DNA from: a virus
Lineage: Duplodnaviria > Caudoviricetes
Direction: 5' to 3' (one strand)
Length of the DNA stretch: 62,297 bases
IMG/VR virus record: IMGVR_UViG_3300037493_001386
Span: 1-62,297 of that record
Shown: in pieces, positions 1 through 62,297 of the stretch
How positions within the stretch are numbered: the stretch's first letter is position 1
Layout of the letters: each line of letters begins with the position of its first letter
The notes under the pieces: generated by a model
The model's input: the letters and a program-made list of their open reading frames with translations, nothing else
Told to the model about the DNA's origin: nothing
The model's database searches: none
Position numbers and translations under genes: made by a program

Positions 1-127
1 AGTAGGTAAAGATTTAAACTACGCATTATCAATTGTTGAATGGTATTCAGCAACAGACAAGCAAGACAAAGAAGTTAAATTAATCCTAAATCAAATCTGG
101 AATTAATAACCAACTAAGGGAGGCTCA
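1..127 (+). repeat. Exact 127-nt direct repeat, copy 1 (3' end of a small early gene plus part of a hairpin)
   Basis: Identical to 37130-37256; the copies diverge at the next base (aggctcaT vs aggctcaG). Confidence 0.95.
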
Positions 128-150
128 TACCTCCCTATATTTTCATTTTT
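117..150 (+). terminator. Hairpin / putative intrinsic terminator
   Basis: AGGGAGG-ctcata-CCTCCCT followed by a T-rich tract. Confidence 0.55.
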
Positions 151-185
151 AAATTTTTAATTAATCAATCCTAAATTCGTGTAAT

Positions 186-557
186 ATGAAAACTGAATCC
201 AAATTATCACTTTCCCAAATCTTAAATAACTATATCGACTTTTACGAACTTAGAGTTAGTGAGTTGATGGTAAAATTAGAATCAGATTACCTATACCAGT
301 TACCTTGGCTTGGGGAGGAAATCTATAAGTATAAGTATACCATTGCATATTACAAGTCAATGCTTAATGATTTGCAATCTGAGACCGATGGAGTTGTACT
401 TGGATATCATACAAGAATGTTATTAAACTACTGCAAGAGGGCATATAATGTAAGGGAAAATTCAACTGGTACATTGCATCGTGAGGTATCTACTTGGAAA
501 TTTCAATGCAATTTGGAAATACTTGAAAAGATTGAACAACTAACTAACAATAACTAA
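186..557 (+). CDS. Hypothetical early protein (A only)
   Basis: 123-aa ORF with A-rich leader; no recognisable motif. Confidence 0.7.
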   Translation: MKTESKLSLSQILNNYIDFYELRVSELMVKLESDYLYQLPWLGEEIYKYKYTIAYYKSMLNDLQSETDGVVLGYHTRMLLNYCKRAYNVRENSTGTLHREVSTWKFQCNLEILEKIEQLTNNN

Positions 558-586
558 TAATAAATCAATCACTAAAATCAATCAAA

Positions 587-1081
587 ATGAAAAAGCAAAA
601 AATGAAATTATCAGGAAGTTTCTTTAATTATTTAATGGGAAACAATGAAAGTATACCAGTAGTCGGTCAAGGCGGAACGGTTCTCGGATACTCGGACCGA
701 CACGCCTTTGAAGTACTGGAGGTATCAAAATGTGGGAAGAAAGTTCTATGCGAATATTACAAGGCAAAGAGAACTGATGATTGGGGAATGAGCGATTCGC
801 AGTCCTATGAATATACTGAGCTTAACGGGCATCAATTTACTCTTGAGTACCGATATGGTTCTTGGAAAGTAAAACATCAGGAAATGCATTTTGAAGAGGC
901 GCATTGGAAACTTTATTATGCTGCTGGAAATGACGGATATGAAAAGTATATCAAACCATATCAGGATGATAATGGAACCACTAACGTACTGGTAAAAGAT
1001 GTGACCAAAATGTATATCACATACTCAAAGAAGAACGTAATATTTGGAGTTAGAAATGAATACTATGATTATTCATTCTAA
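587..1081 (+). CDS. Hypothetical early protein (A only)
   Basis: 164-aa ORF followed by a hairpin. Confidence 0.75.
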   Translation: MKKQKMKLSGSFFNYLMGNNESIPVVGQGGTVLGYSDRHAFEVLEVSKCGKKVLCEYYKAKRTDDWGMSDSQSYEYTELNGHQFTLEYRYGSWKVKHQEMHFEEAHWKLYYAAGNDGYEKYIKPYQDDNGTTNVLVKDVTKMYITYSKKNVIFGVRNEYYDYSF

Positions 1082-1087
1082 AGATAA

Positions 1088-1114
1088 TGGGGAGTAACTT
1101 CCCCAATTATTTTT
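1088..1114 (+). terminator. Putative intrinsic terminator
   Basis: TGGGGAG...CTTCCCCA stem then T tract. Confidence 0.5.
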
Positions 1115-1124
1115 GATTTTAATA

Positions 1125-1154
1125 TTGCATATTCAAAATATATTGTTACATTTA
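1125..1154 (+). promoter_or_regulatory. Bacteroidota-type early promoter, repeated motif
   Basis: TTGCATATTCAAAA...TACATTTA; same layout at 6247, 37005 and 44619. Confidence 0.6.
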
Positions 1155-1186
1155 CAGAACATTAATCAATTACTAAATCAAACGAA

Positions 1187-1429
1187 ATGAATCGAAACCT
1201 TATTGAACACCAAGACACAATATTTTCAATGTTAGAAATTTACGCAAAAGGTAATATTGAAAGTATGGAAGTTGTTGATGCGCTGCAGACAGTTGTATTC
1301 CTGAAGATGAGCCTTGCTCGTCATATTGAAAATGATTTCAAATATATTGGATCAACTGAATATCACGTATTAGTTTCTTCAATTAACTCGTACAAAATAA
1401 GACTAATCAAATCTGTTTCTAATTACTAA
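1187..1429 (+). CDS. Hypothetical early protein
   Basis: 80-aa ORF directly downstream of the promoter motif. Confidence 0.65.
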   Translation: MNRNLIEHQDTIFSMLEIYAKGNIESMEVVDALQTVVFLKMSLARHIENDFKYIGSTEYHVLVSSINSYKIRLIKSVSNY

Positions 1430-1450
1430 TCAATCAAATTTCTAATTACT

Positions 1451-1744
1451 ATGAAAGCATCAACACTTTTCAAATCACAAGAAGGAAATACCTACTTCCA
1501 TTATGATCATCTAAATGGCTCAATGATTACCATTATAACTGATGGCTGCTATACTGGTATATTTACACGATGCGATAATAATTGCGCTGCAATGGCAAGG
1601 CAATTCCACAAGGAAGAATATCACAATGTGCCAGTAATATATCGTGACTATGTTGCAGTCACAACTGATGAATATGTAGAGGCCTTCGATAAGGCAATGG
1701 CAAAACTGGAAGATGCTGCAACCATAATGTTTAAATCACTTTAA
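1451..1744 (+). CDS. Conserved hypothetical protein
   Basis: Clear homolog at 37541-37834 (MKASTLFK...TIMFKSL). Confidence 0.85.
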   Translation: MKASTLFKSQEGNTYFHYDHLNGSMITIITDGCYTGIFTRCDNNCAAMARQFHKEEYHNVPVIYRDYVAVTTDEYVEAFDKAMAKLEDAATIMFKSL

Positions 1745-1771
1745 TTTTTAATCAATAAATCCAAATCAATT

Positions 1772-2479
1772 ATGTTACCAACACTAAATGCTCCAGTAGG
1801 AGGCGAATCAAATTACACGAATAAGATTGCACCAGTTGGTGTCCATCTTGCAAGAATCTACCAAATCATTGACTTAGGTACAACCGAACAAGGTGGTCAG
1901 TTTGGTGGCAAGAAAAGGAAAGTTCAGATACTATTTGAACTTCCTCTTGAAACTGCAGTCTTTGACCCTGAGAAAGGAGAGCAGCCATTCTATGCTCGCA
2001 ATATGTATACGTTGTCAATGCACGAGAAAAGCACCCTGAGAAAAGATGTGCATTCAATGCTTGGAAAAACATTGACAGATGATGAGGCTAAATCATTTAA
2101 TGTTTTTAATCTGCTTGGCAGAGAATGTATGGTTAGTATTATCCATCGACCAAGTGGTGATAAGGTATATGCCAACATTCAAACAATAACACCAGTTCCG
2201 AAAGGAATGGTTTGTCCTCCATCTGTTAACCCTCCTTTAGTGTTCTCAACGCAGATGCCTGATATGCAAGTATTCAGAATGCTTCCTGAGTTCGTACAAG
2301 ACAAGATTAAACTGAGCGACGAATTCATTGCCTATATGAATGCTCAGATGGCTGGTAACTATCCACCAAATAAACCGCAACCTATTCCACTACCAACATT
2401 TACTATCGAAAAGACGAATGATAGTGGTTTACAATGGATGCTTGGTGATGCAGAAGATCCTGATAAATTGCCATTCTAA
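1772..2479 (+). CDS. Phage single-stranded DNA-binding-like protein
   Basis: GxHLARIYQIIDLGT N-terminus, Pro-rich linker, acidic C-terminus ending LPF; homolog at 37862. Confidence 0.65.
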   Translation: MLPTLNAPVGGESNYTNKIAPVGVHLARIYQIIDLGTTEQGGQFGGKKRKVQILFELPLETAVFDPEKGEQPFYARNMYTLSMHEKSTLRKDVHSMLGKTLTDDEAKSFNVFNLLGRECMVSIIHRPSGDKVYANIQTITPVPKGMVCPPSVNPPLVFSTQMPDMQVFRMLPEFVQDKIKLSDEFIAYMNAQMAGNYPPNKPQPIPLPTFTIEKTNDSGLQWMLGDAEDPDKLPF

Positions 2480-2488
2480 ATTCATATG

Positions 2489-2527
2489 GTCGGAGATTTA
2501 ATAATTAGTTATTTCTCCGACCTTTTT
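2489..2527 (+). terminator. Intrinsic terminator after the SSB-like gene
   Basis: GGTCGGAGA...TCTCCGACC followed by TTTTT; a different hairpin sits at the same place in B (38582). Confidence 0.65.
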
Positions 2528-2572
2528 AAAAATAATAGGAAAATAAAATTGTCCTACAAAAATCCTACAACT

Positions 2573-3223
2573 ATGAAATCAGAAATTATATTAAATGTTG
2601 ATTCGCTATATGAAGTGATCAATCATCCATCCACATTAAAAAGCCAACAATTAATTAATGATGCACCATCAAAGGTAGAAGATAAGTTAACCTATGATAT
2701 TATGGAGCATACCATTAAACTTGCCAATGATGTAGTCAAGTTAATTGAGACAAATCGTAAATCAATTACTGCTCCATTGGATGCCTACAAAAAGCAAATA
2801 ATGGAAATTGAAAAGGATGCAGTAGAACCATTAAAGAAGTTTATTGAATCTGGTAAGTCTCAACTGCTATCATACAATAATGAATTAGAAAAAGTGCAAC
2901 GAGAGGCAAATGAAAAACTAAGGATTGAATCTGAAGCGGCATTAATAAATTCTGATGCTGATGTATTTAATACTCTTGCTGGATACTTTACCGACCAATC
3001 AGTTTCAATTAATACTGAGCAGCCAAAGAATATCAGGACTACTAAGAAGGCTCGCATTTGTGGCGAAGTAAACTGGTCAATGGTACTTAATGTATTATTT
3101 GCAGCCGAGTCATTGGACTACCAAGACTTACTAACTCCACTTGCAAAGGCAATGGAAAAATGCGGAGTTGTAATGATTGAAGGTATTGAAATCTATGATC
3201 ACAAAACACAAGTAATAAGATAA
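2573..3223 (+). CDS. Coiled-coil protein of the recombination module
   Basis: Start moved to ATG 2573 by homology with 38621-39280; RKSITAPLD coiled-coil region and GIEIY C-terminus. Confidence 0.65.
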   Translation: MKSEIILNVDSLYEVINHPSTLKSQQLINDAPSKVEDKLTYDIMEHTIKLANDVVKLIETNRKSITAPLDAYKKQIMEIEKDAVEPLKKFIESGKSQLLSYNNELEKVQREANEKLRIESEAALINSDADVFNTLAGYFTDQSVSINTEQPKNIRTTKKARICGEVNWSMVLNVLFAAESLDYQDLLTPLAKAMEKCGVVMIEGIEIYDHKTQVIR

Positions 3224-3226
3224 GTT

Positions 3227-3727
3227 ATGGAAGATAAAAAACCAGTACTAAATTTCAGAGGTGCAAATCCAATTAAACCAGTTTCAATTAATCAACACAT
3301 AAATCCAAAACAAATGAATACACAATTAACTATTGCTGATGAATTAAAAGTATCGCAAACTCATAAATATAAATTTGCGCCACATAACCATTCCGAAATT
3401 ATTAAGGCACTTGACACTTATAGGAATCATTTTAATATAGGTACTCAGGAGTTCTCTAAAATGGCTGGATATTGGGAAGGGCACTTTAATGCTTTATGTA
3501 CCTATAAACATAAATTCTCTGAGCCAAGTTATAGAAAATACAGAGAAGTGGTTATGGCATTAAAGGCAAAAGAATTAAATAAAGAAAAGCCAGTCTATGC
3601 GCCAACAGAACCAGCAACAATTAACAATACTGAATTAACAGAAGATATCTGCATTAACTTTTTGAAAGCGACCGGAGAATATAAAATATCCAAATTAGAA
3701 ACTATTACTAATTGGGTTGAATTATGA
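3227..3727 (+). CDS. Hypothetical protein, possible HTH (A only)
   Basis: 166-aa ORF absent from B; LDTYRNHFNIGTQEFSKMAG resembles an HTH. Confidence 0.55.
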   Translation: MEDKKPVLNFRGANPIKPVSINQHINPKQMNTQLTIADELKVSQTHKYKFAPHNHSEIIKALDTYRNHFNIGTQEFSKMAGYWEGHFNALCTYKHKFSEPSYRKYREVVMALKAKELNKEKPVYAPTEPATINNTELTEDICINFLKATGEYKISKLETITNWVEL

Positions 3728-4332
3728 CACGAAATGATTTCATTTATTATCCAGCATTATCGTGTTCTAAAATAAAGAAGTACTATACTGGAGATATTAG
3801 TTATGCAAAAGTAGCAATGGAAAAAGGCATTAGTATCCATAACCAATTGCTGGAAACTAAACCTGAGGATATGAATCCTGAAGCATTTAATATTCATAAC
3901 GCAATAGGTAACCATCCAATTGCATCAAGAATAATGTATGAATCAATTAATGAATATCCAATAATAAAAGACGTAACTATTGGAAAGCATACTATTCAAG
4001 GGAAAGCACTATTTGATATCTATAATGAGAAATTAAATCTGATAGCAGATATCAAAACAACATCTGCCAAAACATTGGATGTATTCGCATCAGATATGAT
4101 TAAGCACTATAATCACATTCAAGCAGTTTGGTACTCCCTAATCGCTGGAATTGATCCCAAGAACTTCTATTACATTGGAGTAACATCAATGTCTAAAAAA
4201 GTAGGGAGTAAATCTGATAGCATATTTATATATAGGCATAATGATAATGAGATTTCAGATGCTTATAAATTGATTACTGGATACCTTGATATAAATATTG
4301 CAGAACTAAAAGATAAATACAAAAGCAAATGA
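3724..4332 (+). CDS. PD-(D/E)XK exonuclease (RecE/exonuclease VIII-like)
   Basis: LSCSKIK, KALFD...IADIKTT and YNHIQAVWY motifs; homolog at 39277. Confidence 0.8.
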   Translation: MTRNDFIYYPALSCSKIKKYYTGDISYAKVAMEKGISIHNQLLETKPEDMNPEAFNIHNAIGNHPIASRIMYESINEYPIIKDVTIGKHTIQGKALFDIYNEKLNLIADIKTTSAKTLDVFASDMIKHYNHIQAVWYSLIAGIDPKNFYYIGVTSMSKKVGSKSDSIFIYRHNDNEISDAYKLITGYLDINIAELKDKYKSK

Positions 4333-4697
4333 ATGTAGTTTCAAGTACAGATTATGATTTGCTTTTTAGTTATAATCCTTGCGATATATTTCATTATTAT
4401 AATATTGATGAGATGCACGGATTGAATTTATATGACTGCATAAATTATAATAACACAAAAGAATCTGCATACTTTGCTGGTTGGTGCAATCTAATTCCAA
4501 ACTCAAATAGGCATTATGTATTTATTAATCTAAGTAGATGTAATAATGATATAGAGACATTTGGATTAATAATGCACGAACTGATGCATCTTAGTTTTGA
4601 TCTTCATACAGATGAAGAAGAATTAATTACTTGGGCGGAAAATGAATCTTACAAAGTATTTCAAATAATTAAAAACAATTTAATAAATGAATCCTGA
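4329..4697 (+). CDS. Small zincin-like HExxH protein (A only)
   Basis: IMHELMH plus downstream EEE. Confidence 0.6.
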   Translation: MNVVSSTDYDLLFSYNPCDIFHYYNIDEMHGLNLYDCINYNNTKESAYFAGWCNLIPNSNRHYVFINLSRCNNDIETFGLIMHELMHLSFDLHTDEEELITWAENESYKVFQIIKNNLINES

Positions 4698-5151
4698 ATT
4701 AGTTAGCCACATTGAATACTTAACTGGTAAGTCAATTAAGTTTAAAGAGATAGAAAATAGGTATGCCATTGGAGTTAAAAGATGGTTTCTTTGCGGAGGT
4801 GATTTGCCATCAATTGAAATAGCAAAGTATCTTGATATCAGCCATAATAAATTGACACTATTAATTCAGAAGCAAATGTCAAAAGTTACTGGTATAAAAC
4901 TTAAAGATGAAGCACCAATAGTTGATGTAATGTATACTCCATATTCATTAGAGAAATTATATCCTAAGTCTTACAGATTTGATTGGCAGCCAGTATATGA
5001 ATTAAACTATTATCTTTACCTCGCTAACAATTCAAGGGATCAAATAATTGATAATTACAAAGTATTTCTAAATGAGTCACGAGGTAGAGATATACAAAGT
5101 CATAGCAAGGTATCTTTCAATAAAATATCCAAAGGTAATATTCAGATTTGA
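4687..5151 (+). CDS. Conserved hypothetical protein, HTH-like
   Basis: PSIEIAKYLDISHNKL; homolog at 40126. Confidence 0.7.
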   Translation: MNPELVSHIEYLTGKSIKFKEIENRYAIGVKRWFLCGGDLPSIEIAKYLDISHNKLTLLIQKQMSKVTGIKLKDEAPIVDVMYTPYSLEKLYPKSYRFDWQPVYELNYYLYLANNSRDQIIDNYKVFLNESRGRDIQSHSKVSFNKISKGNIQI

Positions 5152-5455
5152 TTTTGCTGCTGGTATGTATCTGAGTCCATATATGGCAACAAAGCATAGG
5201 TCGCAAAATCCAATAAAAGGATATCCCGATTTATTTATTGCTTTACCTCGTGGAAAATTTGCTGGTCTATTTATTGAAATCAAAACTGAGAAAGCGAATC
5301 CATTTAAAAAGGATGGCACTTTGAAATCTAACGAGCATACAGAAAGACAAGCCGAAGTATTATCAATGCTGAATGAGGTTGGATACTATGCAGTATTTAC
5401 AAGTGGTGTTGACGAAACAATAAAAATTATAGAGAACTATATACATCAAAAATAA
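5072..5455 (+). CDS. VRR-NUC domain nuclease
   Basis: GYPDLFI...FIEIKT...RQ...L...GY motifs; homolog at 40511. Confidence 0.85.
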   Translation: MSHEVEIYKVIARYLSIKYPKVIFRFDFAAGMYLSPYMATKHRSQNPIKGYPDLFIALPRGKFAGLFIEIKTEKANPFKKDGTLKSNEHTERQAEVLSMLNEVGYYAVFTSGVDETIKIIENYIHQK

Positions 5456-5471
5456 TTTTCTATTTTAGCAA

Positions 5472-5581
5472 CATTCAGAGGTGGTATCCTGAATGCAACA
5501 AAAATATGTCGCCCTATGGTGACTGAGAGGCAACGATTAAAATCTGAGCCGATACCACCTCAGTCTTCATAGGGCATTTTT
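5472..5581 (+). ncRNA. Structured leader RNA upstream of the replication initiator (two hairpins plus loop-bulge pairing)
   Basis: Conserved at 43831-43943 with three compensatory base-pair changes; ends in a U tract. Confidence 0.75.
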
Positions 5582-5594
5582 AATTCTTATAACA

Positions 5595-6215: not shown

Positions 6216-6246
6216 AAAAAAATTTAAAAATATTTTGATAAATGTA

Positions 6247-6276
6247 TTGCATATTCAAAAAACTATATTAAGTTTG
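6247..6276 (+). promoter_or_regulatory. Bacteroidota-type promoter
   Basis: TTGCATATTCAAAA...TAAGTTTG. Confidence 0.7.
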
Positions 6277-6297
6277 CAGAACACTAAATCAAACACT

Positions 6298-6555
6298 ATG
6301 AAAATTTCAGCAAAACAAATCGTAAGAAGAACGAATAAAAATACTGCAACCACTATAATGGAGGGATATCATATGACTAAAATTGGTAATGACAATATTG
6401 GATGGAGAGGAGCAGAAGAAAATGAATATCATTTTATTACCAAGTATGGAAGTAAAATTCCGAAATGCGGTCAAGAAACAATAATAAGGGTTCTTGAAAT
6501 TGAATCTGAATTAATAAGATTTGATGGAGCGAATATTTACATAAAATTTAATTAA
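6298..6555 (+). CDS. Hypothetical protein (A only)
   Basis: Likely start ATG 6298 after the promoter and a CTAAATCAAAC leader. Confidence 0.65.
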   Translation: MKISAKQIVRRTNKNTATTIMEGYHMTKIGNDNIGWRGAEENEYHFITKYGSKIPKCGQETIIRVLEIESELIRFDGANIYIKFN

Positions 6556-6789: not shown

Positions 6790-6796
6790 TCTATTC

Positions 6797-55085: not shown

Positions 55086-57055
55086 AGTTTATTTTAGATG
55101 GTTCAGATAGAGGTCAGCCAACTAATGCAATAGAATTTGGATTTACTATTTCAGAAGAGATTGATATAAAAACAAGAGTTGTATCATTCAACAATGATTT
55201 GATATTTAGTGGTGCTGCTTATGACTACTTATTTACATTATTAGTTAATAATGGTATTTGTAATTTAGTAGATGTTAATGTACTATATGAATGTCAAGGG
55301 ATATGGAAAAACCTAGTAAATGGGTATCTGATTGTATCTGAATTAATCTTTGATTTTGATAGATGTACTTGTAGAACTAAGATGTATGATACATCATTTA
55401 GCACAAGAATTAATAATAACAAAGACATACCATTTTCACTTAATAGTTTAAAAACTAAAAATCTTTATCCTAAGTCTGCTGCTAATATTGTTCAATTAGA
55501 ATTCTTTAACCCATCAAATTGCGTAACTAATACAATTGATACAATTGGTGGATATTCTGTTTGGGAGGCATTTAAAAATTTAATTGCATCAATGAGTGAC
55601 AATCTTATAGATTTTCAATCTGATTTTTTTAGAATACAAACATTTGGATTAGCTAGTAGAGTTAATTATTTTGTTACTACTGGTAAATCAATTGCTGATA
55701 AATCAAGTTCAGTAGATGCTATTGTTTCATTTAAGCAATTATTCTCAACACTTGATTCAAAGTTAAATTTAGGTATTGGATTTACAAGACAATCTAATGG
55801 TAGACCATTAATGAGAATTGAACCAGCAAGTTTCTTTTATGAACAGAATTCAATCGTAAATCTTTATGACCAGCCTGATATAACATTATCAGTTGATAAG
55901 ACTCAATTGTATGGTACAATAAGATTAGGTGCAAGTGAATCACTACAATTTAATGAATGCAATAATGGTGATTCAAATTGTCAATTTGTACAAACACCAG
56001 TTGATGGATTTGAAGAAAATACATTTGGATTCTTAGGAACTTGTAATACTGGCACAGCATTAAATTTAGTTTCAAATGAAGTAATTATAGATACTAATAT
56101 AATTGAAGATACTTATATCTTTAATAGTGATGCATATTTAACAAATACATTTATAATTGAAATAAAATACAACTTTCAACCAGCTGGTGGAGGTCAACCA
56201 GCAAAGATTAGATATTTAGCAAATAAACAAGACCCTTATGAACAAGGTAATTGCTACTATAATATCTCACTTAATAATTTAGCATCATCATTTAATTGGA
56301 GAACCGAATTACATAATTCAATTGCTCAATATCAAGAACCATATACACCAGCATCTACAAACTTTAATGTTAGGGTATCTTCTAATTTATCATTTGTAAT
56401 AACTCCTACCTCAGCAACATATTTTGAAACTACAGACCAGTACATTAAATATTTAGATGAGGTAAATGATGTTGGTAATAACTTTTCAGTAGACAAATAT
56501 GTAGTTCCTCGTGCTGGACAATATACATTTGATGTAGAGATATTTACATTTTGTTCAAATAGTTATTCAATTCAAGCAATTATACAAAGGTTTAATTCTA
56601 ATGATGAATTTGTTGGACAAGTGGTTAGTTCCACACAAAATAGTACGGGTGGAATTCTATCTGCAACCATAACATTAACTGCTGTATTTAATCAAGGTGA
56701 TATTATAAGAACAGATTTACAAGCCGTTTCAGGAAATGGTGGCAATCAAACACTAATTATTCAAAATATATTTAGTGCTAATCCATCTATATTTTATGGT
56801 AGCGGTACACCATTTGAAAATGAGTTTCAAGTAGTAGACCCTAATGCATCTAAAAAGATATTATATAAATTTGACCGACCATTAACAATGACTGAGATTG
56901 AGGCAATACTTGACAATACCTCACGACCTATAGCATTTGGTAGATGGGATGACCCACTAAGAACTATTGAAGGTTACATTAAGAAGGTTGATGTTAAGTC
57001 AATTATAGAACAAGAAGCATCATTTGAATTAAAGTCTAATAAGATACTGAGATGA
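55070..57055 (+). CDS. Tail tip/baseplate protein
   Basis: Homolog of 20161. Confidence 0.65.
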   Translation: MASEIKFILDGSDRGQPTNAIEFGFTISEEIDIKTRVVSFNNDLIFSGAAYDYLFTLLVNNGICNLVDVNVLYECQGIWKNLVNGYLIVSELIFDFDRCTCRTKMYDTSFSTRINNNKDIPFSLNSLKTKNLYPKSAANIVQLEFFNPSNCVTNTIDTIGGYSVWEAFKNLIASMSDNLIDFQSDFFRIQTFGLASRVNYFVTTGKSIADKSSSVDAIVSFKQLFSTLDSKLNLGIGFTRQSNGRPLMRIEPASFFYEQNSIVNLYDQPDITLSVDKTQLYGTIRLGASESLQFNECNNGDSNCQFVQTPVDGFEENTFGFLGTCNTGTALNLVSNEVIIDTNIIEDTYIFNSDAYLTNTFIIEIKYNFQPAGGGQPAKIRYLANKQDPYEQGNCYYNISLNNLASSFNWRTELHNSIAQYQEPYTPASTNFNVRVSSNLSFVITPTSATYFETTDQYIKYLDEVNDVGNNFSVDKYVVPRAGQYTFDVEIFTFCSNSYSIQAIIQRFNSNDEFVGQVVSSTQNSTGGILSATITLTAVFNQGDIIRTDLQAVSGNGGNQTLIIQNIFSANPSIFYGSGTPFENEFQVVDPNASKKILYKFDRPLTMTEIEAILDNTSRPIAFGRWDDPLRTIEGYIKKVDVKSIIEQEASFELKSNKILR

Positions 57056-58719
57056 GTTATACATCAATACCAAACCAACCTATTATCTTTCATACGGAAG
57101 AGGAACTACTAACACCTTGTGAAGAGTGTGGAGATGGTAGCTATAGACAATTGGTTGACCTTAATGACCAGTTATTCTTTCAAGTTGATGCACCTGATTG
57201 TACTGGTAAGTTACCACTTAGCAGTTTGTCAAATGTAATATGGACTTTAGATGGTAATATTGTTTGCTCAACTACAGCATCTAATGGTAGTGCATCTGTT
57301 ATATTTACCACACCTTACCCTTATGAAGTTTATAGGTTAGAAATACTTGTTACTGAACTTACAGAGGGTGACTTAGTGGTTACCATTCAAAACGGTGAAT
57401 CATTCACATTTTATACGGCTGGTACTTATAACATCTACCTATCAACTCAAGCAGCCATCAATGGTGACCTATCACTACAAGTTAACTTTGCATCAACCAC
57501 TTTTGTAGGTTGTTTCAATCTACGTGTAGGTGCATTTGGTGTTGGTACTGATATGCAGTTAGGGTGGGTAGACCCATCTACATTCGAGTATGTTGCACCA
57601 GTAGTTGGATTCTTAACTACCATTAAAGATAATAAAGTGACTGCTGCTATTCCAATGGTAGACCAAGAGATAGGTATTGGATGCCATAGGTTAGCAATAA
57701 CAGACCCTTGTGATAATGGATGTTCTACCTATGGCATTGATAATCCTAACTTTAATGGTTCGGTAGCAGTTGGTGGTGCTGGTAGTGGATGGGATTTGAC
57801 TAATGGTATTTGGGAGATAAGCGGTGGTCAAGCAATATTTACAGATGTTATTACTGGAGATAATGCAGTAATGGTAAGTGATTCTTTCTTATGTGCTGCT
57901 GAAGATTCAGTCTATGATGTTACCATTACTATCACTCAACATCAAGATGTAAGGGTATTTGTATTAGCACCATCAGGTGGTTCAGTCACACCTAACTATG
58001 TTGCTGGTGTAGGTACATTTACGTTTCAAGTTACTACTGGTGCATTTGCTGAACAACTAACTATAAGAGGTCAAGCAATGGCAGATGGTGCATTTGTGTA
58101 CATTGATAGTTGTGTTGTTAGTCTTACTGCTCAATCTTCTACATTCGTTCAATACTCTGACATCTTTGACTTAGGTGACTATAACGATAGTTGTAAATAC
58201 TTTAAGATTGAAGGTTGTAATGCTCAAGACCAGTTTAACTTTGCCTTTGGCGGTTCATCATTCTTACCAATGATAAGGTTAGAGGGTAGAAGGTCTAAGG
58301 CTCAATACGTGACCAATGCTAACACCTTTAGATATGCATCAGGTAAGTGGTCTGCTAACTATGTCAACCGATTAAAACAATGGACATATCATTTTGGGAG
58401 ATTACCTGAATATGTATTAGACTTTTTATCTACCATCTTCTACTATGACAATTGTTATGTCAATGGTGTGTTAATGTTTCCACAAGATAATGCATTCCCT
58501 TCTATTGACTGGTCTGATGCTGACACCTACTTAGGTTCTTTTGCTATTGACTTAGTTGAGAAAGACAATAAGGTTGTTAAGGTACAATGTGGTGACTCAG
58601 ATGCTGACTGCTTACCATCAATCTTAGATAACTCAGATGAACCTTTCTTATTGACTGAAGACCTAAATAGAATAACTACACAAGATTCAGTTAATTTGTA
58701 TTACGAAAATAATTTGTAG
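57052..58719 (+). CDS. Tail protein with variable internal domains
   Basis: Homolog of 22191. Confidence 0.65.
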   Translation: MSYTSIPNQPIIFHTEEELLTPCEECGDGSYRQLVDLNDQLFFQVDAPDCTGKLPLSSLSNVIWTLDGNIVCSTTASNGSASVIFTTPYPYEVYRLEILVTELTEGDLVVTIQNGESFTFYTAGTYNIYLSTQAAINGDLSLQVNFASTTFVGCFNLRVGAFGVGTDMQLGWVDPSTFEYVAPVVGFLTTIKDNKVTAAIPMVDQEIGIGCHRLAITDPCDNGCSTYGIDNPNFNGSVAVGGAGSGWDLTNGIWEISGGQAIFTDVITGDNAVMVSDSFLCAAEDSVYDVTITITQHQDVRVFVLAPSGGSVTPNYVAGVGTFTFQVTTGAFAEQLTIRGQAMADGAFVYIDSCVVSLTAQSSTFVQYSDIFDLGDYNDSCKYFKIEGCNAQDQFNFAFGGSSFLPMIRLEGRRSKAQYVTNANTFRYASGKWSANYVNRLKQWTYHFGRLPEYVLDFLSTIFYYDNCYVNGVLMFPQDNAFPSIDWSDADTYLGSFAIDLVEKDNKVVKVQCGDSDADCLPSILDNSDEPFLLTEDLNRITTQDSVNLYYENNL

Positions 58720-58800
58720 ATTTGTATATCTTTTTGCACCCAGTAGGTTTAAATGTTACAACCTTAAATAGTAACATCAATAACTTTAAATCTATATAAA
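58717..58800 (+). promoter_or_regulatory. Promoter (TAGATTTG) plus GTAGGT...CAACCT pseudoknot-like leader
   Basis: AGGTT/AACCT stem; loop ATGTTAC complementary to downstream GTAACAT. Confidence 0.65.
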
Positions 58801-59340
58801 ATGGGCTGTGCCTCATATTGCGAATCAGGTCTCGAAGCACACGACTTAGTCGTTTGTGGAGACTATAAATTAGGCGGTGTATCCGCTATAGTAATTGGTT
58901 CTTGTGCATCTGTATTAGCTGACCCTACAAGTGGTGAAGAGATTCTTGCTGCTATTAGTTCAGGTGATGCAGTCTTAGTTGAAGATATTCGTTTTGCTCT
59001 ACCAGCTGGTTCACCTATTCAGGTGGATTCTCCAGTAGGTTGTGGAACTCAGATACGTATCAATGAAGACCGAACTGCTACTCTTTACGATGCAAACGTA
59101 ACTGACCAAAACAACACATTCTATAACTCATTAAACCAACAAAAAGTAGGTTGGATAATGGCTTATCTATGTGACTCAGGTAAGGTTATCTACATCGACC
59201 CACCAGTAGGTATTACTACATCTGCTAACTTCATTATCCCTGAACAGAATAATGAACTTCAGCGTTATGAAGTAACATTTAGCTGGAGACAAAAAGAGAT
59301 TCCAACTCAATTTGCAGCACCTGCTGGTATTTTTGGATAA
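58801..59340 (+). CDS. Probable major tail protein
   Basis: Homolog of 23944. Confidence 0.65.
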   Translation: MGCASYCESGLEAHDLVVCGDYKLGGVSAIVIGSCASVLADPTSGEEILAAISSGDAVLVEDIRFALPAGSPIQVDSPVGCGTQIRINEDRTATLYDANVTDQNNTFYNSLNQQKVGWIMAYLCDSGKVIYIDPPVGITTSANFIIPEQNNELQRYEVTFSWRQKEIPTQFAAPAGIFG

Positions 59341-60293
59341 TGACTGAAGAGTTAAACACTAACGATATTGCCACATCTTCTAATGAAGGTGTGGTACTAT
59401 TTGCTTTCGGCAAACAAGGCTACTATCAAGCAGCATACAACTTAGCCTATTCAATAAAGTATCATTCACCTAATGTAAAGATTGCACTCTTTGTAGACGA
59501 TATTAAGAAGTGTGAAAATGCAACGGGTGACATCAAGAAGTACGTTGATTCATTAAATCAAATCGAACATTCCGACCTATACGTAGATGGTAAATTTGAC
59601 CCAGCTATGTTGAAGGTGTCTCTATACAAGTATTTGCCTTTTAAAAACAATCTATATCTTGATGTTGATGCTATATGTTTAAAAGACATTCAGCCATTAA
59701 TAGACGATTTAGTAAGTACAAAGAGGCATTACATCAGTCATTGTGTGGGGTATCATACTATTGATTTAGGACGTGATATCCCCTCAATGCAATGGGCATG
59801 GGCAGATGATATTTGGAGTCACTTTAACTTAGAATACGATTCAATCCTACCAGCTATCAATAGCAGCCTTCAATTCATTAAGATAGGCAAAGAGTCGAAA
59901 ATGTTATTTGAGGTTCTTAGAAACCTTTATACGACTAACCAACTACCAACAAATAGACTTAGAATGAAGTGGGGTAATGGTCAACCTGATGAACTCTATA
60001 TGAATGTTGCATTAGCTATGACATCATACGACCCATCATATAAGAATGATGGTATAGTAGGTGGTGGCAAATCTGAAACTGGGTTTATTCACTTTGCTAA
60101 TGTTCGTGGTTTGTCATTCCAAGAAGTAACAGAAAACTATTATTTTCAATCTTACTATGGTGGTAGGAATTTTACATCAAGATTCTATACTGAGTGGTTA
60201 GATAGGTTAATGAAGGTAATGATGCGAACTCAAAACAAAATACATCAATTTCATATTGATAGAATCATAGGTCAAAAATACGTAAACAAATGA
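59340..60293 (+). CDS. GT-A glycosyltransferase
   Basis: LYLDVDAICL; homolog of 24483. Confidence 0.75.
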   Translation: MTEELNTNDIATSSNEGVVLFAFGKQGYYQAAYNLAYSIKYHSPNVKIALFVDDIKKCENATGDIKKYVDSLNQIEHSDLYVDGKFDPAMLKVSLYKYLPFKNNLYLDVDAICLKDIQPLIDDLVSTKRHYISHCVGYHTIDLGRDIPSMQWAWADDIWSHFNLEYDSILPAINSSLQFIKIGKESKMLFEVLRNLYTTNQLPTNRLRMKWGNGQPDELYMNVALAMTSYDPSYKNDGIVGGGKSETGFIHFANVRGLSFQEVTENYYFQSYYGGRNFTSRFYTEWLDRLMKVMMRTQNKIHQFHIDRIIGQKYVNK

Positions 60294-60889
60294 AAGACAT
60301 ATCTACCAAAAAACCGAAAGGGAGACCTAAGAAGGTCGAAACAATATCTACAGAAATTGTAACTACTGAGACATTTACAGAGGTTGCAAGGCATGACTGG
60401 AACTCTGAAGATGAAGTTGGTCAATTCTTAGGTTCATTAGTTAGAATGTCAAAGTATAAGACCATTCTTGAGATTGGTGTATTTGAAGGTGAAACAACAC
60501 AACACCTTATTAAGTCACTACCTAAAGGCGGTCAATACGTAGGCATTGATATTAACGACTATCGTACAGCAGCAACTAAGTTGTATATGTCAGAGGGTGG
60601 TAAGTCAATTGACTTTATCTTAGGTAATTCTCACAATGAATTAAGTAAACTACCAGCTAATCACTTTGACTTAATCTTTGTGGATGGTGACCATTCTTGG
60701 GCATCAATCCTACCTGAGTTTAAGTTGGTTGAAAAGTTGGTTAGTCGAGGTGGTGTAATTGTATACCATGATACCATCCACCTTCAAGACCCTAAAAGAC
60801 TTGTTGAGTATGCAGCAAATTACAACTACAACACAACAACATTGAATACACCTGAAGGTCGTGGTATATCTTTAATATCTAAATACTAA
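60290..60889 (+). CDS. Class I SAM-dependent methyltransferase
   Basis: LEIGVFEG, FVDGDH, GGVIVYHD. Confidence 0.9.
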   Translation: MKDISTKKPKGRPKKVETISTEIVTTETFTEVARHDWNSEDEVGQFLGSLVRMSKYKTILEIGVFEGETTQHLIKSLPKGGQYVGIDINDYRTAATKLYMSEGGKSIDFILGNSHNELSKLPANHFDLIFVDGDHSWASILPEFKLVEKLVSRGGVIVYHDTIHLQDPKRLVEYAANYNYNTTTLNTPEGRGISLISKY

Positions 60890-60893
60890 AACT

Positions 60894-60974
60894 ATGAAAG
60901 TTCTATTTTGTCGTTCTAAATCTTGTGGCTCACACATTATCAATTCAACTACATCTACTAAAATCGTAGCATAA
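60894..60974 (+). CDS. Conserved 26-aa microprotein MKVLFCRSKSCGSHIINSTTSTKIVA
   Basis: Homolog of 26043. Confidence 0.8.
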   Translation: MKVLFCRSKSCGSHIINSTTSTKIVA

Positions 60975-62297
60975 TGGCACTCTCTATTGAAGAGGTTAAT
61001 AAGATAGTCAATAAGTTTGCCTATAAACACAAGGCATTCGAGAATGATAAGTCAAGGTCAATTACAAACCCTATCTCAAAACGTAGGGTAGGAATGTATC
61101 AATATCCTGAATACTGGGATGGGTACAATTTCTCTGCAATGATGTATGATTCAATCTTACCTCATGCACGTGCTGATGTATACCCTGAACATTTACTATC
61201 TGTTAGAAGTCCAAATCAAACTGAGGCTCAATATGAGTATATCAAGGCTAACTATAAGGCTACTACTCTTAATGTCTTTGAAGATTTTAAGGCTACTATC
61301 TCACGTGCATTTGCAGACCAAAACTGGTCAATCAATGTAAGACCTGAGACAGATGAAAGATTTGGTGATGACACATTTAGTAAGTTCATCAATGAAGAGA
61401 TTGAAAAATTTGGTAGTGTTGAGGTCTTTGTTAAATCAATGCTACCTACCTTAAAGTTAATTGACCCTAATGGAATCATAGCCATTGAGCCTGAAGATTT
61501 CGATATTGAAGATAATGGTAATGATGAAGAGTTATTGATAGGTAACAACCTAATTAAACCAATGCCTTCATACTATAATTGTAAAAGAATTGTAGGTCAA
61601 GAATATGGTAGATGGTACTTAGTTATTGATGAAGATAGAAGTCACGTTAAGGTAGGTACTAAGACTGAAGAGTCAGGAATCATTCTTGAATTGTTTGACG
61701 ATACCTATATCTACAGAATAGAACAAGTAGGTAAAAAAAGTGATATGACATTTGGTGAACCAGTTGTATACTTTCAACACGATTTAGGTTATGTACCTTG
61801 TAGAAAGTTGATGGGTACACCACTCTTAGTTAATAATGAGTTGGTGTTTCAATCTCCATTTATTACAGCCGTTCCATTACTTGACCAAGTGGTATTAGAT
61901 GAATCATATTTACAGATGTCTAAAGCTACAAGTGCATTTCCTTTCATGGTTGCATTAGGTGAAATTTGTGAGTTCGTAGATAGAGAGGGTAATAGATGTG
62001 ATAACGGACAAATCTTTGACCCTATAGGAGGTGGGTATCGTACTTGTGGAAGTTGTAGTGGTGCTGGTGTTAAGAGTCGTTTCAGTCCAACTGGAATGCT
62101 ACTTGTTAAACCTAAGACATCAATGAGTGAGGGTGACTCAGGTCTATCAGGTGACTATATGAAGTTTGTAAGTCCACCAATGGACACATTGACCTTTCTT
62201 AGAAATGAGATTAATACTCAAATGGATAAGTCAAGAAGTGTATTACATCTACCTTCAAGTGATGCATCAGGAACGATAGGTGAGGCATCAACTGCTA
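60974..62297 (+). CDS. Portal protein (truncated by the window end)
   Basis: Begins MALSIEEVNK; homolog of 26123; missing from the ORF track because no stop lies in the window. Confidence 0.85.
   Translation, partial: MALSIEEVNKIVNKFAYKHKAFENDKSRSITNPISKRRVGMYQYPEYWDGYNFSAMMYDSILPHARADVYPEHLLSVRSPNQTEAQYEYIKANYKATTLNVFEDFKATISRAFADQNWSINVRPETDERFGDDTFSKFINEEIEKFGSVEVFVKSMLPTLKLIDPNGIIAIEPEDFDIEDNGNDEELLIGNNLIKPMPSYYNCKRIVGQEYGRWYLVIDEDRSHVKVGTKTEESGIILELFDDTYIYRIEQVGKKSDMTFGEPVVYFQHDLGYVPCRKLMGTPLLVNNELVFQSPFITAVPLLDQVVLDESYLQMSKATSAFPFMVALGEICEFVDREGNRCDNGQIFDPIGGGYRTCGSCSGAGVKSRFSPTGMLLVKPKTSMSEGDSGLSGDYMKFVSPPMDTLTFLRNEINTQMDKSRSVLHLPSSDASGTIGEASTA

What the first reader, a model, noticed from the sequence alone, without database searches (positions are those of the whole stretch)
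1..62297. Reciprocal palindrome avoidance: A lacks AGCT and CATG, B lacks GATC
Seen at homologous codons. GATC in A is replaced in B (2456 gaaGATCc vs gaagaccc near 38546; 26612 tGATCcta vs tgacccta near 61462; many more). AGCT and CATG in B are replaced in A (59004 ccAGCTggt vs ccagcgggt near 24145; 59281 AGCTgg vs agttgg at 24424; 45735 CATGgt vs cacgga at 8241; 61163 CATGca vs cacgca at 26312). By eye I found no GATC in B, no CATG in A, and only three AGCT in A (819, 35106, 35323). GGCC and CCGG also look scarcer in B, and CCWGG looks scarce in both. Inference: the two phages face different host restriction sets, or each tolerates the sites that its own modification module protects (IbrAB cassette in A, methyltransferase in B).
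Basis: partly seen in the sequence, partly recalled or inferred. Interest (0 to 1): 0.75.

Follow-up and report, generated by a model that had tools for sequence, protein, structure and literature searches.

The report
Two phages avoiding different restriction sites
The window is two related uncultured phage genomes joined by the assembler, and each has purged a different set of short palindromes that look like restriction-enzyme sites, a striking but textbook case of phages escaping host restriction.

Summary
With A = 1-37129 and B = 37130-62297, A has AGCT 3, CATG 0 and GATC 65. B has GATC 0, AGCT 57 and CATG 26. CTAG, CCWGG, CCTGY and CCAGR are near zero in both, CGCG in A, and GGCC and CCGG in B.

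A and B are separate phages. The contig passes from a closed 37,129-bp circle (A) into B through an exact 127-nt shared stretch, and unitig depths differ between the two sides in one run.

Eighty IMG/VR relatives show discrete, mostly clade-specific avoidance "barcodes".

These barcodes do not track methyltransferase or IbrA-like genes:
- Relatives with and without methyltransferases share the same profile.
- 20 other phage loci carrying the IbrA cassette have diverse profiles, and 7 lack GATC.

Best reading: selection by different host restriction-modification repertoires. The hosts are unknown, so this is inferred. The phenomenon is known; this is a new, extreme example.

The parts
1..37129 (+). 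Phage A, one full turn of a circularly assembled genome (GC 34%). It lacks CATG, CTAG, CGCG, CCWGG and CCTGY and has 3 AGCT; it keeps GATC (65) and GCGC (36).
   Evidence: Window 1-127 is repeated exactly at 37130-37256. IMG/VR virus record, CheckV completeness 100%. Complete relatives are 34.6-38.9 kb.
37130..62297 (+). Phage B, a truncated 25.2-kb part of a syntenic relative (GC 34%). It lacks GATC, GGCC, CCGG, CGCG, CCWGG and GGWCC and has 3 CTAG; it keeps AGCT (57) and CATG (26) at about half of expectation.
   Evidence: Self-BLAST gives 13 collinear blocks at 71-95% DNA identity. Amino-acid identity over 6,060 aligned codons is 73%.
36969..37256 (.). Stretch shared by A and B, through which the assembler passed from A into B. 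The true A/B boundary is undefined within it.
   Evidence: Exact 127-nt repeat at 1-127 and 37130-37256. 4 of 10 complete relatives end in exact 127-nt repeats, the signature of a k=127 assembly overlap; in run X1 a unitig of depth 78.4 covers 37013-37256 and stops at 37256, between an A-side unitig of depth 44.6 and B-side unitigs of 40.5-44.6. In run X2 the A side has depth 2-4.8 and the B side 22.7-35.4. Other sequence enters at 36969 in both runs.
10374..10964 (+). ParB N-terminal-domain protein (196 aa), the first gene of A's cassette. It sits in a slot upstream of the terminase that holds stand-alone ParB or ParB-methyltransferase fusions in relatives.
   Evidence: Pfam ParB_N, E 2.9e-10. 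Homologues at 53-74% identity in 27 loci, 8 of them 390-511 aa with a DPPY motif. ParB_N plus N6_N4_Mtase was confirmed by Pfam in the 4 that were scanned.
10971..11765 (+). Bicupin-fold protein (264 aa) with a conserved HxH...H motif, part of the IbrA-type cassette.
   Evidence: Alignment A2. AlphaFold model with pLDDT 80.4 and pTM 0.82. Foldseek PDB top hits are bicupins (1sfn E 5e-10, 4e2q, 1sef, quercetin dioxygenases). A tblastn match lies upstream of IbrA in 12 of 20 IbrA loci.
11765..12940 (+). IbrA-like protein (391 aa): PAPS-reductase domain plus DUF3440.
   Evidence: Pfam PAPS_reduct E 3.1e-16 and DUF3440 E 5.5e-11. Weak hits to DndC, BrxP and SspD, far below the NCBIfam cut-offs. 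It is the only PAPS_reduct hit in 28 records.
12937..13434 (+). 165-aa protein of no known family, found only in A's copy of the cassette.
   Evidence: No Pfam, PHROG or PADLOC hit. No tblastn match in any of the 20 IbrA loci.
13427..13933 (+). Second ParB-like protein (168 aa), the conserved IbrB-like partner just downstream of IbrA.
   Evidence: Pfam ParB_N is weak, E 0.002 and below the cut-off. A homologue at 48-78% identity lies just downstream of IbrA in 20 of 20 IbrA loci.
41433..42800 (+). SNF2/DEAD-type helicase (455 aa), the first gene of B's 2.9-kb insert.
   Evidence: Pfam Helicase_C, DEAD, SNF2-rel_dom and ResIII. There is no counterpart in A, where the blocks join at 5456/5450. 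A homologue at 59% identity is in L040.
42806..43819 (+). N6_N4-family DNA methyltransferase (337 aa, SPPF motif) of B.
   Evidence: Pfam N6_N4_Mtase E 1.3e-23. Many PADLOC MTase_II models match. Homologues at 71% identity are in L040 and L042 and at 40% in L065.
14285..15559 (+). Terminase large subunit of A, used to fetch relatives and build the tree.
   Evidence: Pfam Terminase_6N. 171 relatives found in IMG/VR, of which 80 were fetched.
49132..50412 (+). Terminase large subunit of B, 74% amino-acid identity to A's.
51860..59796 (+). CATG-free 7.9-kb stretch of B (tail and virion genes). It also holds B's only three CTAG sites (54507, 55313, 55653), so it is probably a mosaic segment with a different avoidance history.
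   Evidence: the largest CATG gap is 7,938 nt, approximate P 0.001. A-B DNA identity is lowest here, 70.8% over 53316-55436.

Best explanation
The window holds two separate, syntenic, uncultured phages of about 37 kb. They are probably phages of low-GC Bacteroidota-like hosts. The assembler joined them through a shared stretch.

Each genome has been purged, mainly by synonymous substitutions, of the short words that restriction endonucleases of its own host population would cut.
- Both have purged CTAG, CCWGG, CCTGY/RCAGG and CCAGR/YCTGG. CGCG is absent from both, but only in A is that beyond chance.
- A has additionally purged AGCT and CATG.
- B has additionally purged GATC, GGCC, CCGG and GGWCC.

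The reciprocal difference therefore reflects different host restriction-modification repertoires. These are most likely related hosts or strains that share some systems and differ in others. It does not reflect protection by the phages' own modification genes.

Shown: the depletion, its codon-level pattern, the separateness of A and B, and the lack of association with phage methyltransferase or IbrA genes.

Inferred: that restriction enzymes are the selecting agent, and that the hosts differ.
For: 1. Size and specificity of the depletion under a protein- and codon-usage-preserving null. Examples are 0 vs 67 CATG and 3 vs 113 AGCT in A, and 0 vs 65 GATC in B. No shuffle of 300 reached the observed values. 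A scan of all k-mers places these words at the extreme.

2. The sites are gone at homologous codons, mostly with the amino acid kept. None of 33 aligned GATC, 44 AGCT or 13 CATG is conserved in the other genome, against 14-28% for control palindromes.

3. A and B are separate replicons.
- There is an exact 127-nt joint.
- The same 127-nt end overlap occurs in 4 of 10 complete relatives.
- In run X2 the unitig depths are 2-4.8 on the A side and 22.7-35.4 on the B side.

4. The phenomenon is family-wide. Over 82 terminase rows (80 IMG/VR loci plus A and B), profiles are discrete and mostly clade-specific.
- One clade has GATC, CTAG, GGCC, CCWGG, GGWCC and CCAGR at or near zero, while CGCG and GCGC are enriched.
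- One clade has CATG, CTAG, CGCG, GGCC, CCGG and CCWGG at or near zero, with GATC over-represented 2.2-fold.
- In two whole 36-kb genomes (G003, G005), ten words have 0-3 copies each.
- States change repeatedly on the tree: GATC 5 times, CCGG 12, GGWCC 11.

5. Phage modification genes do not explain the pattern.

6. RCAGG/CCTGY avoidance is shared by A and B alone among the 82 rows, although they are not sisters in the terminase tree. With their common GC of 34%, against 40-49% in 79 of the 80 relatives, this points to similar hosts.

7. Near-complete loss of orthodox Type II sites in non-temperate dsDNA phages is the documented pattern (PMC6286503, abstract read).
Against: - No host is known. 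No relative was found in 185,579 species genomes with the terminase, and the window has no tRNA gene. No cognate restriction enzyme has therefore been shown for any avoided word.
- Several avoided words are non-palindromic 5-mers (CCTGY, CCAGR). The survey in PMC6286503 (abstract) reports that Type IIG and Type III sites are rarely avoided, so these words are less typical.
- B's half-depletion of AGCT and CATG, and A's mild depletion of GATC, are explained only loosely, by context-limited tolerance.
- The 2.2-fold excess of GATC in one clade is unexplained.
- 'Methyltransferase-negative' means no hit to three Pfam families in whole records (27 records) or in +-10 kb loci. Other modification enzymes could be missed.
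- The independent-pairs test has low power, with only 8 pairs.
Confidence: 0.8

Rival explanations
1. Self-protection. A tolerates GATC, GCGC and GGCC because its ParB-bicupin-PAPS-reductase (IbrAB-type) cassette modifies its DNA. B tolerates AGCT and CATG because its N6_N4 methyltransferase methylates them. Each phage only needs to purge the sites it cannot protect.
For: - Both cassettes exist.
- A's cassette begins in the slot that holds ParB-N6_N4 methyltransferase fusions in relatives.
- ParB-like proteins partner DNA-modifying enzymes elsewhere: ParB-dependent thymine dioxygenases (PMC13229309, abstract) and DndB and DpdB (PMC12839542, passages).
- IbrA shows weak similarity to DndC, BrxP and SspD.
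Against: - Complete relatives with a B-like profile have no hit to the three methyltransferase families searched (G002, G004, G009).
- Relatives carrying B's methyltransferase type (L040, L042) differ in no 4-mer, 5-mer or palindromic 6-mer from relatives without it.
- Across 8 independent pairs, the avoidance state mostly does not change with methyltransferase presence.
- 7 of 20 IbrA-carrying loci have zero GATC. All 20 keep AGCT at half or more of the composition expectation, and only 3 lack CATG. The cassette therefore predicts neither what A tolerates nor what it avoids.
- The relatives that tolerate or enrich GATC have no PAPS_reduct gene.
- IbrA's similarity to DndC is far below family cut-offs, and its function is unknown in the Flavobacterium phage literature (PMC4541368, passages).
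Confidence: 0.1
2. There is no selection by restriction. The differences come from mutational bias, host-like oligonucleotide composition or codon-pair preferences, which differ between the two lineages.
For: - B shows a general CpG deficit (267 vs 439 expected), which lowers CCGG, GCGC, CGCG and TCGA together.
- CTAG is rare in many bacterial genomes for reasons other than restriction (recalled; no call supports this).
- AAAA and similar non-site words also deviate from the null.
Against: - Complete absence of A+T-balanced palindromes (GATC, CATG, AGCT, CTAG), with 63-113 expected under a null that keeps proteins and codon usage, cannot come from a compositional trend.
- Single-step neighbours such as GACC, CACG and TGCT replace them.
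- Control palindromes of the same composition, GTAC and TGCA, are not depleted.
- States flip between relatives whose terminases are nearly identical (CCGG 0 vs 8-16 sites).
Confidence: 0.05
3. Artefact. A and B are one real 62-kb tandem molecule, or the pattern results from mis-assembly or mixed strains.
For: - The contig is a single IMG/VR record.
- In run X1 the A-side and B-side unitigs have nearly the same depth, 44.6 vs 40.5-44.6.
Against: - The joint is an exact 127-nt repeat, as at the ends of circularly assembled relatives.
- In run X2 the depths differ about 5- to 10-fold between the sides, and other sequence enters the shared stretch at 36969.
- Whichever way the joint is read, word counts within each 25-37 kb part are internally uniform. 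The largest GATC gap in A is 1.8 kb and the largest AGCT gap in B is 1.8 kb. They also match whole-genome profiles of independent relatives.
Confidence: 0.03

Closest known systems
Restriction-site (palindrome) avoidance in virulent dsDNA phages, as surveyed by Rusinov et al. 2018 (PMC6286503)
   Same: Near-complete elimination of 4-6-bp palindromes of the orthodox Type II kind, in genomes where no integrase was noticed among the genes scanned. The avoided set is lineage-specific.
   Different: - Ten or more words are avoided at once in 36-kb genomes.
- Non-palindromic 5-mers (CCTGY, CCAGR) are also avoided.
- The hosts are unknown, so no site-enzyme pairing is shown.
- Two contrasting profiles sit in one chimeric contig.
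IbrA/IbrB genes of Flavobacterium phages FCL-2 and prophage 6H (PMC4541368, passages read)
   Same: A PAPS-reductase/DUF3440 protein lies next to a ParB-like protein in phages of low-GC Bacteroidota. The function is unknown.
   Different: Here the cassette has four or five genes: ParB, bicupin, IbrA, a 165-aa protein in A only, and a second ParB. It sits directly upstream of the small- and large-terminase genes. No sequence comparison with FCL-2 or 6H was run.
ParB-partnered DNA-modification systems: ParB-dependent thymine dioxygenases (PMC13229309, abstract), and DndB/DndC and DpdB/DpdA (PMC12839542, passages)
   Same: A ParB-family protein is encoded beside an enzyme of a family that modifies DNA. 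The PAPS-reductase superfamily includes DndC, BrxP and SspD.
   Different: - IbrA scores far below the DndC and BrxP cut-offs.
- The neighbouring enzyme is a bicupin, not a TET/JBP-type dioxygenase.
- No DNA modification is shown, and the cassette does not predict the avoidance profile.
Orphan phage DNA methyltransferases of the N6_N4 family, including ParB-methyltransferase fusions
   Same: B's 337-aa enzyme and the 390-511-aa ParB fusions of relatives match PF01555.
   Different: Their specificity is unknown. Their presence or absence among relatives changes no avoided word.

Membership tests
Restriction-site avoidance | Significant under-representation of specific short words against a null that keeps proteins and codon usage | tested here: met
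   300 shuffles. A: AGCT 3 vs 113, CATG 0 vs 67, CTAG 0 vs 63. B: GATC 0 vs 65, CTAG 3 vs 67. No shuffle reached the observed values.
Restriction-site avoidance | The avoided words are short palindromes of the kind recognised by orthodox Type II enzymes | tested here: met
   The palindromy of the top-ranked words is read directly from the sequence. That enzymes of these specificities exist is recalled from general knowledge and was not looked up. The non-palindromic CCTGY and CCAGR do not fit this feature.
Restriction-site avoidance | Sites are removed by substitutions that spare the protein | tested here: met
   Amino acids were kept at 23 of 33 aligned GATC, 11 of 13 aligned CATG and 20 of 44 aligned AGCT. 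No site is conserved in the other genome.
Restriction-site avoidance | The host encodes restriction enzymes for the avoided words | not testable with these tools
   The host is unknown. The terminase scan of species genomes found nothing. The window has no tRNA gene.
Restriction-site avoidance | The profile differs between related phages of different hosts | tested here: inconclusive
   Profiles do differ between clades of 80 relatives, but none of their hosts is known.
Self-protection by a phage-encoded modification module | Tolerance of a word goes with presence of the module among relatives | tested here: not met
   no word separates the groups; IbrA loci are diverse; 27 whole records; 8 independent pairs, no association, low power.
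IbrA/IbrB-type cassette | PAPS_reduct plus DUF3440 protein next to a ParB-like protein | tested here: met
   (Pfam); a ParB-like gene follows IbrA in 20 of 20 loci.
IbrA/IbrB-type cassette | Biochemical activity (DNA modification or other) | not testable with these tools
   There is only weak similarity to DndC, BrxP and SspD and a bicupin neighbour.
N6_N4 DNA methyltransferase (PF01555) | Match over the Pfam gathering score, with a catalytic (D/N/S)PP(Y/F) motif | tested here: met
   84.6 bits against a cut-off of 26.7. SPPF motif. The target sequence was not determined.

The most novel reading that the evidence does not exclude
The avoidance 'barcodes' record strain-level host restriction repertoires in an uncultured phage family. 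They switch often enough that they could be used to pair phages with hosts and to time host switches: CCGG changes 12 times and GGWCC 11 times on an 82-row terminase tree, including between phages with near-identical terminases. In addition, the slot upstream of the terminase is an exchange site for ParB-partnered DNA-modification modules. On this reading A's ParB-bicupin-PAPS-reductase-ParB cassette is a new, non-methyltransferase DNA-modifying system that substitutes for the ParB-methyltransferase fusions of relatives.
Probability: 0.2. Interest if true: 0.6.

Novelty: new member of a known kind. Interest (0 to 1): 0.33.

Why it matters
Restriction-site avoidance is a textbook anti-restriction strategy, so the mechanism is not new.

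What this window and its relatives add:
- An unusually clean natural experiment. It is one syntenic phage family of about 36 kb. 171 relatives were detected, and 80 loci plus 10 whole genomes were examined.
- Whole genomes in this family have lost between one and about ten different short words, in discrete combinations, with or without phage methyltransferases.
- For uncultured phages such profiles are a free host-linked signal. They predict which restriction systems the unseen host carries.
- Here they suggest that carrying a methyltransferase does not relax avoidance.

The window also warns that IMG/VR records rated complete can be chimeras of two phages joined at a conserved stretch.

Tried and rejected
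- Close named relatives: megablast of A 14000-34000 against 50,697 phage records found none. Terminase and portal tblastn gave only distant hits (<32% identity), many of them Bacteroidota phages: Flavobacterium 11b, Polaribacter, Croceibacter, Bacteroides. This is only a weak host hint.
- Terminase scan of 185,579 species genomes: 14 pattern matches, none confirmed.
- Is GATC in the GATC-rich clade, or in A, part of the cyanobacterial HIP1 word GCGATCGC? No. The flanks are unbiased in 1,024 sites. HIP1 is recalled from memory.
- A C5 methyltransferase as an explanation for CCGG tolerance in L035: rejected. CCGG-tolerant relatives (L053, L019, L022, L042, L044, L047, L051, L021) lack it in the fetched range, and L023, L024 and L055 carry C5 methyltransferases with zero CCGG.
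- The 264-aa protein as a TET/JBP-like dioxygenase (prompted by PMC13229309): rejected. It is a bicupin.
- PHROG scans of 20 A proteins gave exonuclease, DNA-repair protein, portal and virion protein, and nothing that bears on restriction.
- Naming enzymes for CCTGY and CCAGR: not attempted, because no REBASE-like resource was at hand.
- Only 80 of the 171 terminase relatives were fetched, and only 27 near-complete records were scanned whole.
- Supplementary files of papers were not requested.

Full report
WHAT THE WINDOW IS

The window is one IMG/VR virus record of 62,297 nt. A self-comparison shows 13 collinear blocks of 71-95% DNA identity between 1-27446 and 37130-62297. The window therefore holds two syntenic genomes:
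- A = 1-37129.
- B = 37130-62297, cut off at the contig end.

Both have 34% G+C, and almost all genes lie on the + strand. A simple + strand gene set of 86 ORFs covers 95% of the window.

Window 1-127 recurs exactly at 37130-37256, after which the two copies diverge. Four of ten complete relatives end in exact 127-nt repeats. This is what a k=127 assembler leaves on a circular genome; that k=127 is a common top k-mer size is recalled. A is thus one full turn of a circle, and the contig then runs on into B through a word that both phages share.

Public-run unitigs agree.
- In run X1 a unitig of depth 78.4 covers 37013-37256 and stops exactly at 37256. It lies between an A-side unitig of depth 44.6 and B-side unitigs of 40.5-44.6.
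- In run X2 the A side has depth 2-4.8 and the B side 22.7-35.4.
- In both runs other sequence enters the shared stretch at 36969.

A and B are therefore separate replicons that co-occur in samples labelled as sediment metagenomes. The 62-kb record is a chimera. A second such case is the 52-kb record that holds both L023 and L057.

THE OBSERVATION

- A has 65 GATC, 3 AGCT (at 819, 35106, 35323) and no CATG.
- B has no GATC, 57 AGCT and 26 CATG.
- GGCC is 9 in A and 0 in B. CCGG is 6 in A and 0 in B. CCWGG is 0 in both.

I used a null that shuffles synonymous codons, so every protein and the genome's codon usage are kept (300 shuffles).
- Expected in A: AGCT 113+-9, CATG 67+-6, GATC 98+-6.5.
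- Expected in B: GATC 65+-6, AGCT 111+-8, CATG 49.5+-5, GGCC 9.0+-2.7, CCGG 8.7+-2.7.
- No shuffle reached the observed values.
- CCWGG is significant in A (0 vs 10.3, lowest shuffle 4) but not on its own in B (0 vs 4.2, lowest shuffle 0).

Over 6,060 aligned codons with 73% amino-acid identity:
- None of 33 aligned GATC of A is kept in B. 23 are replaced with the amino acids unchanged, 12 of them as GACC.
- None of 44 aligned AGCT or 13 aligned CATG of B is kept in A. CATG most often becomes CACG or TATG.
- The control palindromes GTAC, TGCA, ACGT and TCGA are kept at 14-28% of aligned sites.

- CTAG is 0 in A (63 expected) and 3 in B (67 expected).
- CGCG is 0 in A (16 expected).
- A scan of all words and of degenerate motifs adds non-palindromic words lost from both genomes:
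  - CCTGY/RCAGG: A 0 vs 84, B 2 vs 57.
  - CCAGR/YCTGG, inside CYAGR: A 4 vs 122, B 4 vs 102.
- In B the scan also adds GGAYC (0 vs 29), ACRGT (1 vs 42) and others.
- B is itself half-depleted for AGCT and CATG, and A is mildly depleted for GATC.
- The sites that remain sit in narrow contexts:
  - 49 of B's 57 AGCT are AGCTA/TAGCT.
  - 55 of A's 65 GATC are GATCA/TGATC.
  - All 36 GCGC of A are GCGCA/TGCGC.
  This suggests that longer words containing these cores are also avoided.
- B has a general CpG deficit (267 vs 439).
- B's tail-gene region 51860-59796 has no CATG (approximate P 0.001) and holds B's only three CTAG sites. This points to a mosaic segment.

GENES

- A encodes a DnaB-type helicase, exonucleases, the terminase large subunit (14285-15559), a portal protein (26123-28033) and virion proteins.
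- A's private cassette at 10374-13933 comprises:
  - ParB_N (196 aa).
  - A 264-aa protein that models as a bicupin: pLDDT 80, with Foldseek hits to bicupins at E 5e-10.
  - PAPS_reduct plus DUF3440, IbrA-like, 391 aa.
  - A 165-aa protein of no known family.
  - A weak ParB_N protein of 168 aa.
- B's private 2.9-kb insert at 41433-43819 is an SNF2/DEAD helicase plus an N6_N4 methyltransferase.

RELATIVES

The terminase finds 171 relatives in IMG/VR. I fetched the best 80 loci, at 73-79% amino-acid identity, and later 10 whole genomes.

Their word profiles fall into discrete types that follow the terminase tree for the most part.
- A large clade (42-44% G+C) has GATC, CTAG, GGCC, CCWGG, GGWCC and CCAGR at or near zero, while CGCG and GCGC are enriched. 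A sub-clade of 5 loci tolerates CTAG.
- A clade of 11 loci has CATG, CTAG, CGCG, GGCC, CCGG and CCWGG at or near zero, while GATC is over-represented. The whole genome G013 has 293 GATC against 130 expected from base composition.
- Three loci, including two whole genomes (G003, G005), have between 0 and 3 copies of each of GATC, AGCT, CATG, CTAG, CGCG, CCGG, GGCC, CCWGG, GGWCC and CCAGR.
- Most of the other 26 loci avoid only CTAG.

The minimum numbers of state changes on the tree are: GATC 5, CTAG 5, GGCC 6, CCWGG 7, CCAGR 8, GGWCC 11, CCGG 12, CGCG 4, CATG 3, AGCT 2. CCGG is 0 or 8-16 among phages with nearly identical terminases.

A and B are not sisters. A stands alone, and B groups with L068, L072 and L070. 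Yet they alone, of 82 rows, avoid RCAGG/CCTGY. They also share a G+C of 34%, against 40-49% in 79 of the 80 relatives. This suggests that they meet similar hosts.

TESTING THE CASSETTE LINK

1. Whole-record Pfam scans of 27 near-complete relatives:
- N6_N4 methyltransferases over the cut-off in 5 records.
- C5 methyltransferases in 2 records.
- D12 methyltransferases in none.
- PAPS_reduct in none; the only hit is A's own gene.
- Complete genomes of the GATC-free, AGCT/CATG-tolerant type (G002, G004, G009) and the two most extreme avoiders (G003, G005) have no hit to any of the three methyltransferase families.

2. Within a type, pooled loci with a given methyltransferase were compared with loci without it. 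The classes were the ParB-N6_N4 fusion, B's type, and C5. No 4-mer, 5-mer or palindromic 6-mer was present in one group and near-absent in the other.

3. In 8 phylogenetically independent pairs that differ in methyltransferase presence, the avoidance state was unchanged in 6 to 8 of the 8 on average for each of GATC, CATG, AGCT, CCGG, GGCC and CGCG. The power is low.

4. The IbrA protein finds 20 loci of other phage families (39-70% identity).
- A ParB-like gene follows IbrA in all 20.
- The bicupin lies upstream of IbrA in 12.
- Their profiles differ widely. GATC is 0 in 7 of 20. AGCT is at half or more of the composition expectation in all 20, near or above it in 19. CATG is 0 in 3. TCGA is 0 in another 7.
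- The cassette therefore predicts neither what A tolerates nor what A avoids.

One positive point remains for the idea that the cassette acts on DNA.
- A's first ParB gene has homologues in 27 relatives at the same place upstream of the terminase. Eight of these are 390-511-aa proteins with a DPPY motif. The four scanned by Pfam proved to be ParB_N-N6_N4 methyltransferase fusions.
- ParB-family partners of DNA-modifying enzymes are documented: PMC13229309 (abstract) and PMC12839542 (passages on DndB and DpdB).
- IbrA's matches to DndC, BrxP and SspD are far below the family cut-offs.
- Papers on Flavobacterium phages that carry IbrA/IbrB give no function (PMC4541368 and PMC4490671, passages).

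EXPLANATION AND ITS LIMITS

Five features match restriction-site avoidance, which is long known and most marked for orthodox Type II sites in non-temperate dsDNA phages (PMC6286503, abstract):
- Complete loss of specific short palindromes.
- Removal mainly by silent changes.
- Profiles that are lineage-specific.
- Frequent switching of states.
- Independence from phage methyltransferases.

The reciprocal difference between A and B is then what two phages with different host restriction repertoires should show.

This remains an inference, because:
- No host could be found.
- No enzyme was matched to any word.
- The non-palindromic avoided words are atypical.
- The GATC excess in one clade is unexplained. 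It is not the HIP1 context.

I put 0.8 on host-restriction selection, 0.1 on self-protection by the cassettes, and less on compositional drift or artefact.

NOVELTY

The mechanism is known. This is a new and extreme example in an uncultured family. It adds the result that carrying a methyltransferase does not relax avoidance here.

A SIDE OBSERVATION OUTSIDE THE WINDOW

A side observation in the related loci may be more novel than the finding itself.
- In 17 of the 80 related loci the terminase gene carries a 39-nt insert inside the Walker A codons (GGAIR|GGKT).
- The insert begins with a stop codon (TAA or TAG, in 4 of the 17 loci after one extra sense codon) right after an Arg codon CGA.
- It then forms a 10-bp hairpin with a GAAA loop. 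The loop-closing pair shows a compensatory change: G-C in 5 and C-G in 4 of 10 aligned loci.
- It ends with Ile-Arg codons (ATT CGC or CGA).
- Skipping it restores the exact motif seen in A, B and the other relatives.
- This resembles the translational bypass of phage T4 gene 60. Bypassing of short inserts has also been proposed for a Streptomyces phage terminase (PMC10732093, passages).

Noticed in passing
L035:10094-10132 and the same place in L037, L039-L045, L047-L050, L053, L055, L057, L067 (not in the window; compare window 14356-14406 and 49203-49253): In 17 of the 80 related loci the terminase large-subunit gene has a 39-nt insert inside the Walker A codons. The order is: Arg codon CGA; a stop codon (TAA or TAG, in 4 loci after one extra sense codon, TGG or TGT); a 10-bp hairpin with a GAAA loop, whose loop-closing pair shows a compensatory G-C/C-G change; then ATT CGC/CGA before GGC GGx AAA. 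Skipping the 39 nt restores GGAIRGGKT. This is a candidate for T4 gene 60-like translational bypass, or for a tiny element removed at the RNA level.
   Followed up: partly
window 1-127 = 37130-37256; shared stretch about 36969-37256: The record is an assembly chimera of two phages joined at a shared word, although it is rated 100% complete. Another record of 52,227 nt holds two terminase genes (L023 and L057) and is probably the same kind of chimera.
   Followed up: partly
L034, L054, L058-L062, L064, L073, L075, L077; whole genome G013 (L118+L119): One clade of relatives has GATC about 2.2-fold over-represented (293 vs 130 expected from composition in 35.3 kb), while CATG, CTAG, CGCG, GGCC and CCGG are at or near zero. 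The GATC flanks are unbiased, so this is not the HIP1 word. It is unexplained.
   Followed up: partly
G003 (L114+L115) and G005 (L116+L117): Two complete 36-kb relatives have 0-3 copies each of ten words (GATC, AGCT, CATG, CTAG, CGCG, CCGG, GGCC, CCWGG, GGWCC, CCAGR). They carry no hit to the three methyltransferase Pfam families searched, and TGCA is enriched 2.3-fold.
   Followed up: partly
window 51860-59796: B's tail and virion gene region has no CATG over 7.9 kb (approximate P 0.001). It contains B's only three CTAG sites (54507, 55313, 55653). This suggests a recombinant segment with a different avoidance history.
   Followed up: partly
window 10374-10964 and homologues in 27 related loci: A conserved ParB N-domain gene sits upstream of the terminase across the family. 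Its C-terminal part varies: 19 stand-alone forms of 170-234 aa, and 8 forms of 390-511 aa with a DPPY motif, of which the 4 scanned are ParB_N-N6_N4 methyltransferase fusions. In A it is followed by the bicupin-IbrA-ParB genes. The slot looks like a hot spot for exchange of modification genes.
   Followed up: partly
window 10971-11765: The 264-aa protein between ParB and IbrA is a bicupin with a conserved HxH...H metal motif and conserved cysteines. It accompanies IbrA in 12 of 20 loci of other phages.
   Followed up: yes
whole window: Sites that survive sit in narrow contexts. All 36 GCGC of A are GCGCA/TGCGC. 55 of A's 65 GATC are GATCA/TGATC. 49 of B's 57 AGCT are AGCTA/TAGCT. 8 of A's 9 GGCC are GGCCT. 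This may point to longer avoided words.
   Followed up: no
window 37130-62297: B has a general CpG deficit (267 vs 439 expected under the codon shuffle, z about -14) that A shows only weakly (654 vs 732).
   Followed up: no
L070 / G016 (L124+L125): One relative has only 27% G+C over its whole 38.9-kb genome. It has no GATC (0 vs 88 expected) but normal CTAG (72 vs 88). This shows how far base composition and avoidance vary within the family.
   Followed up: no
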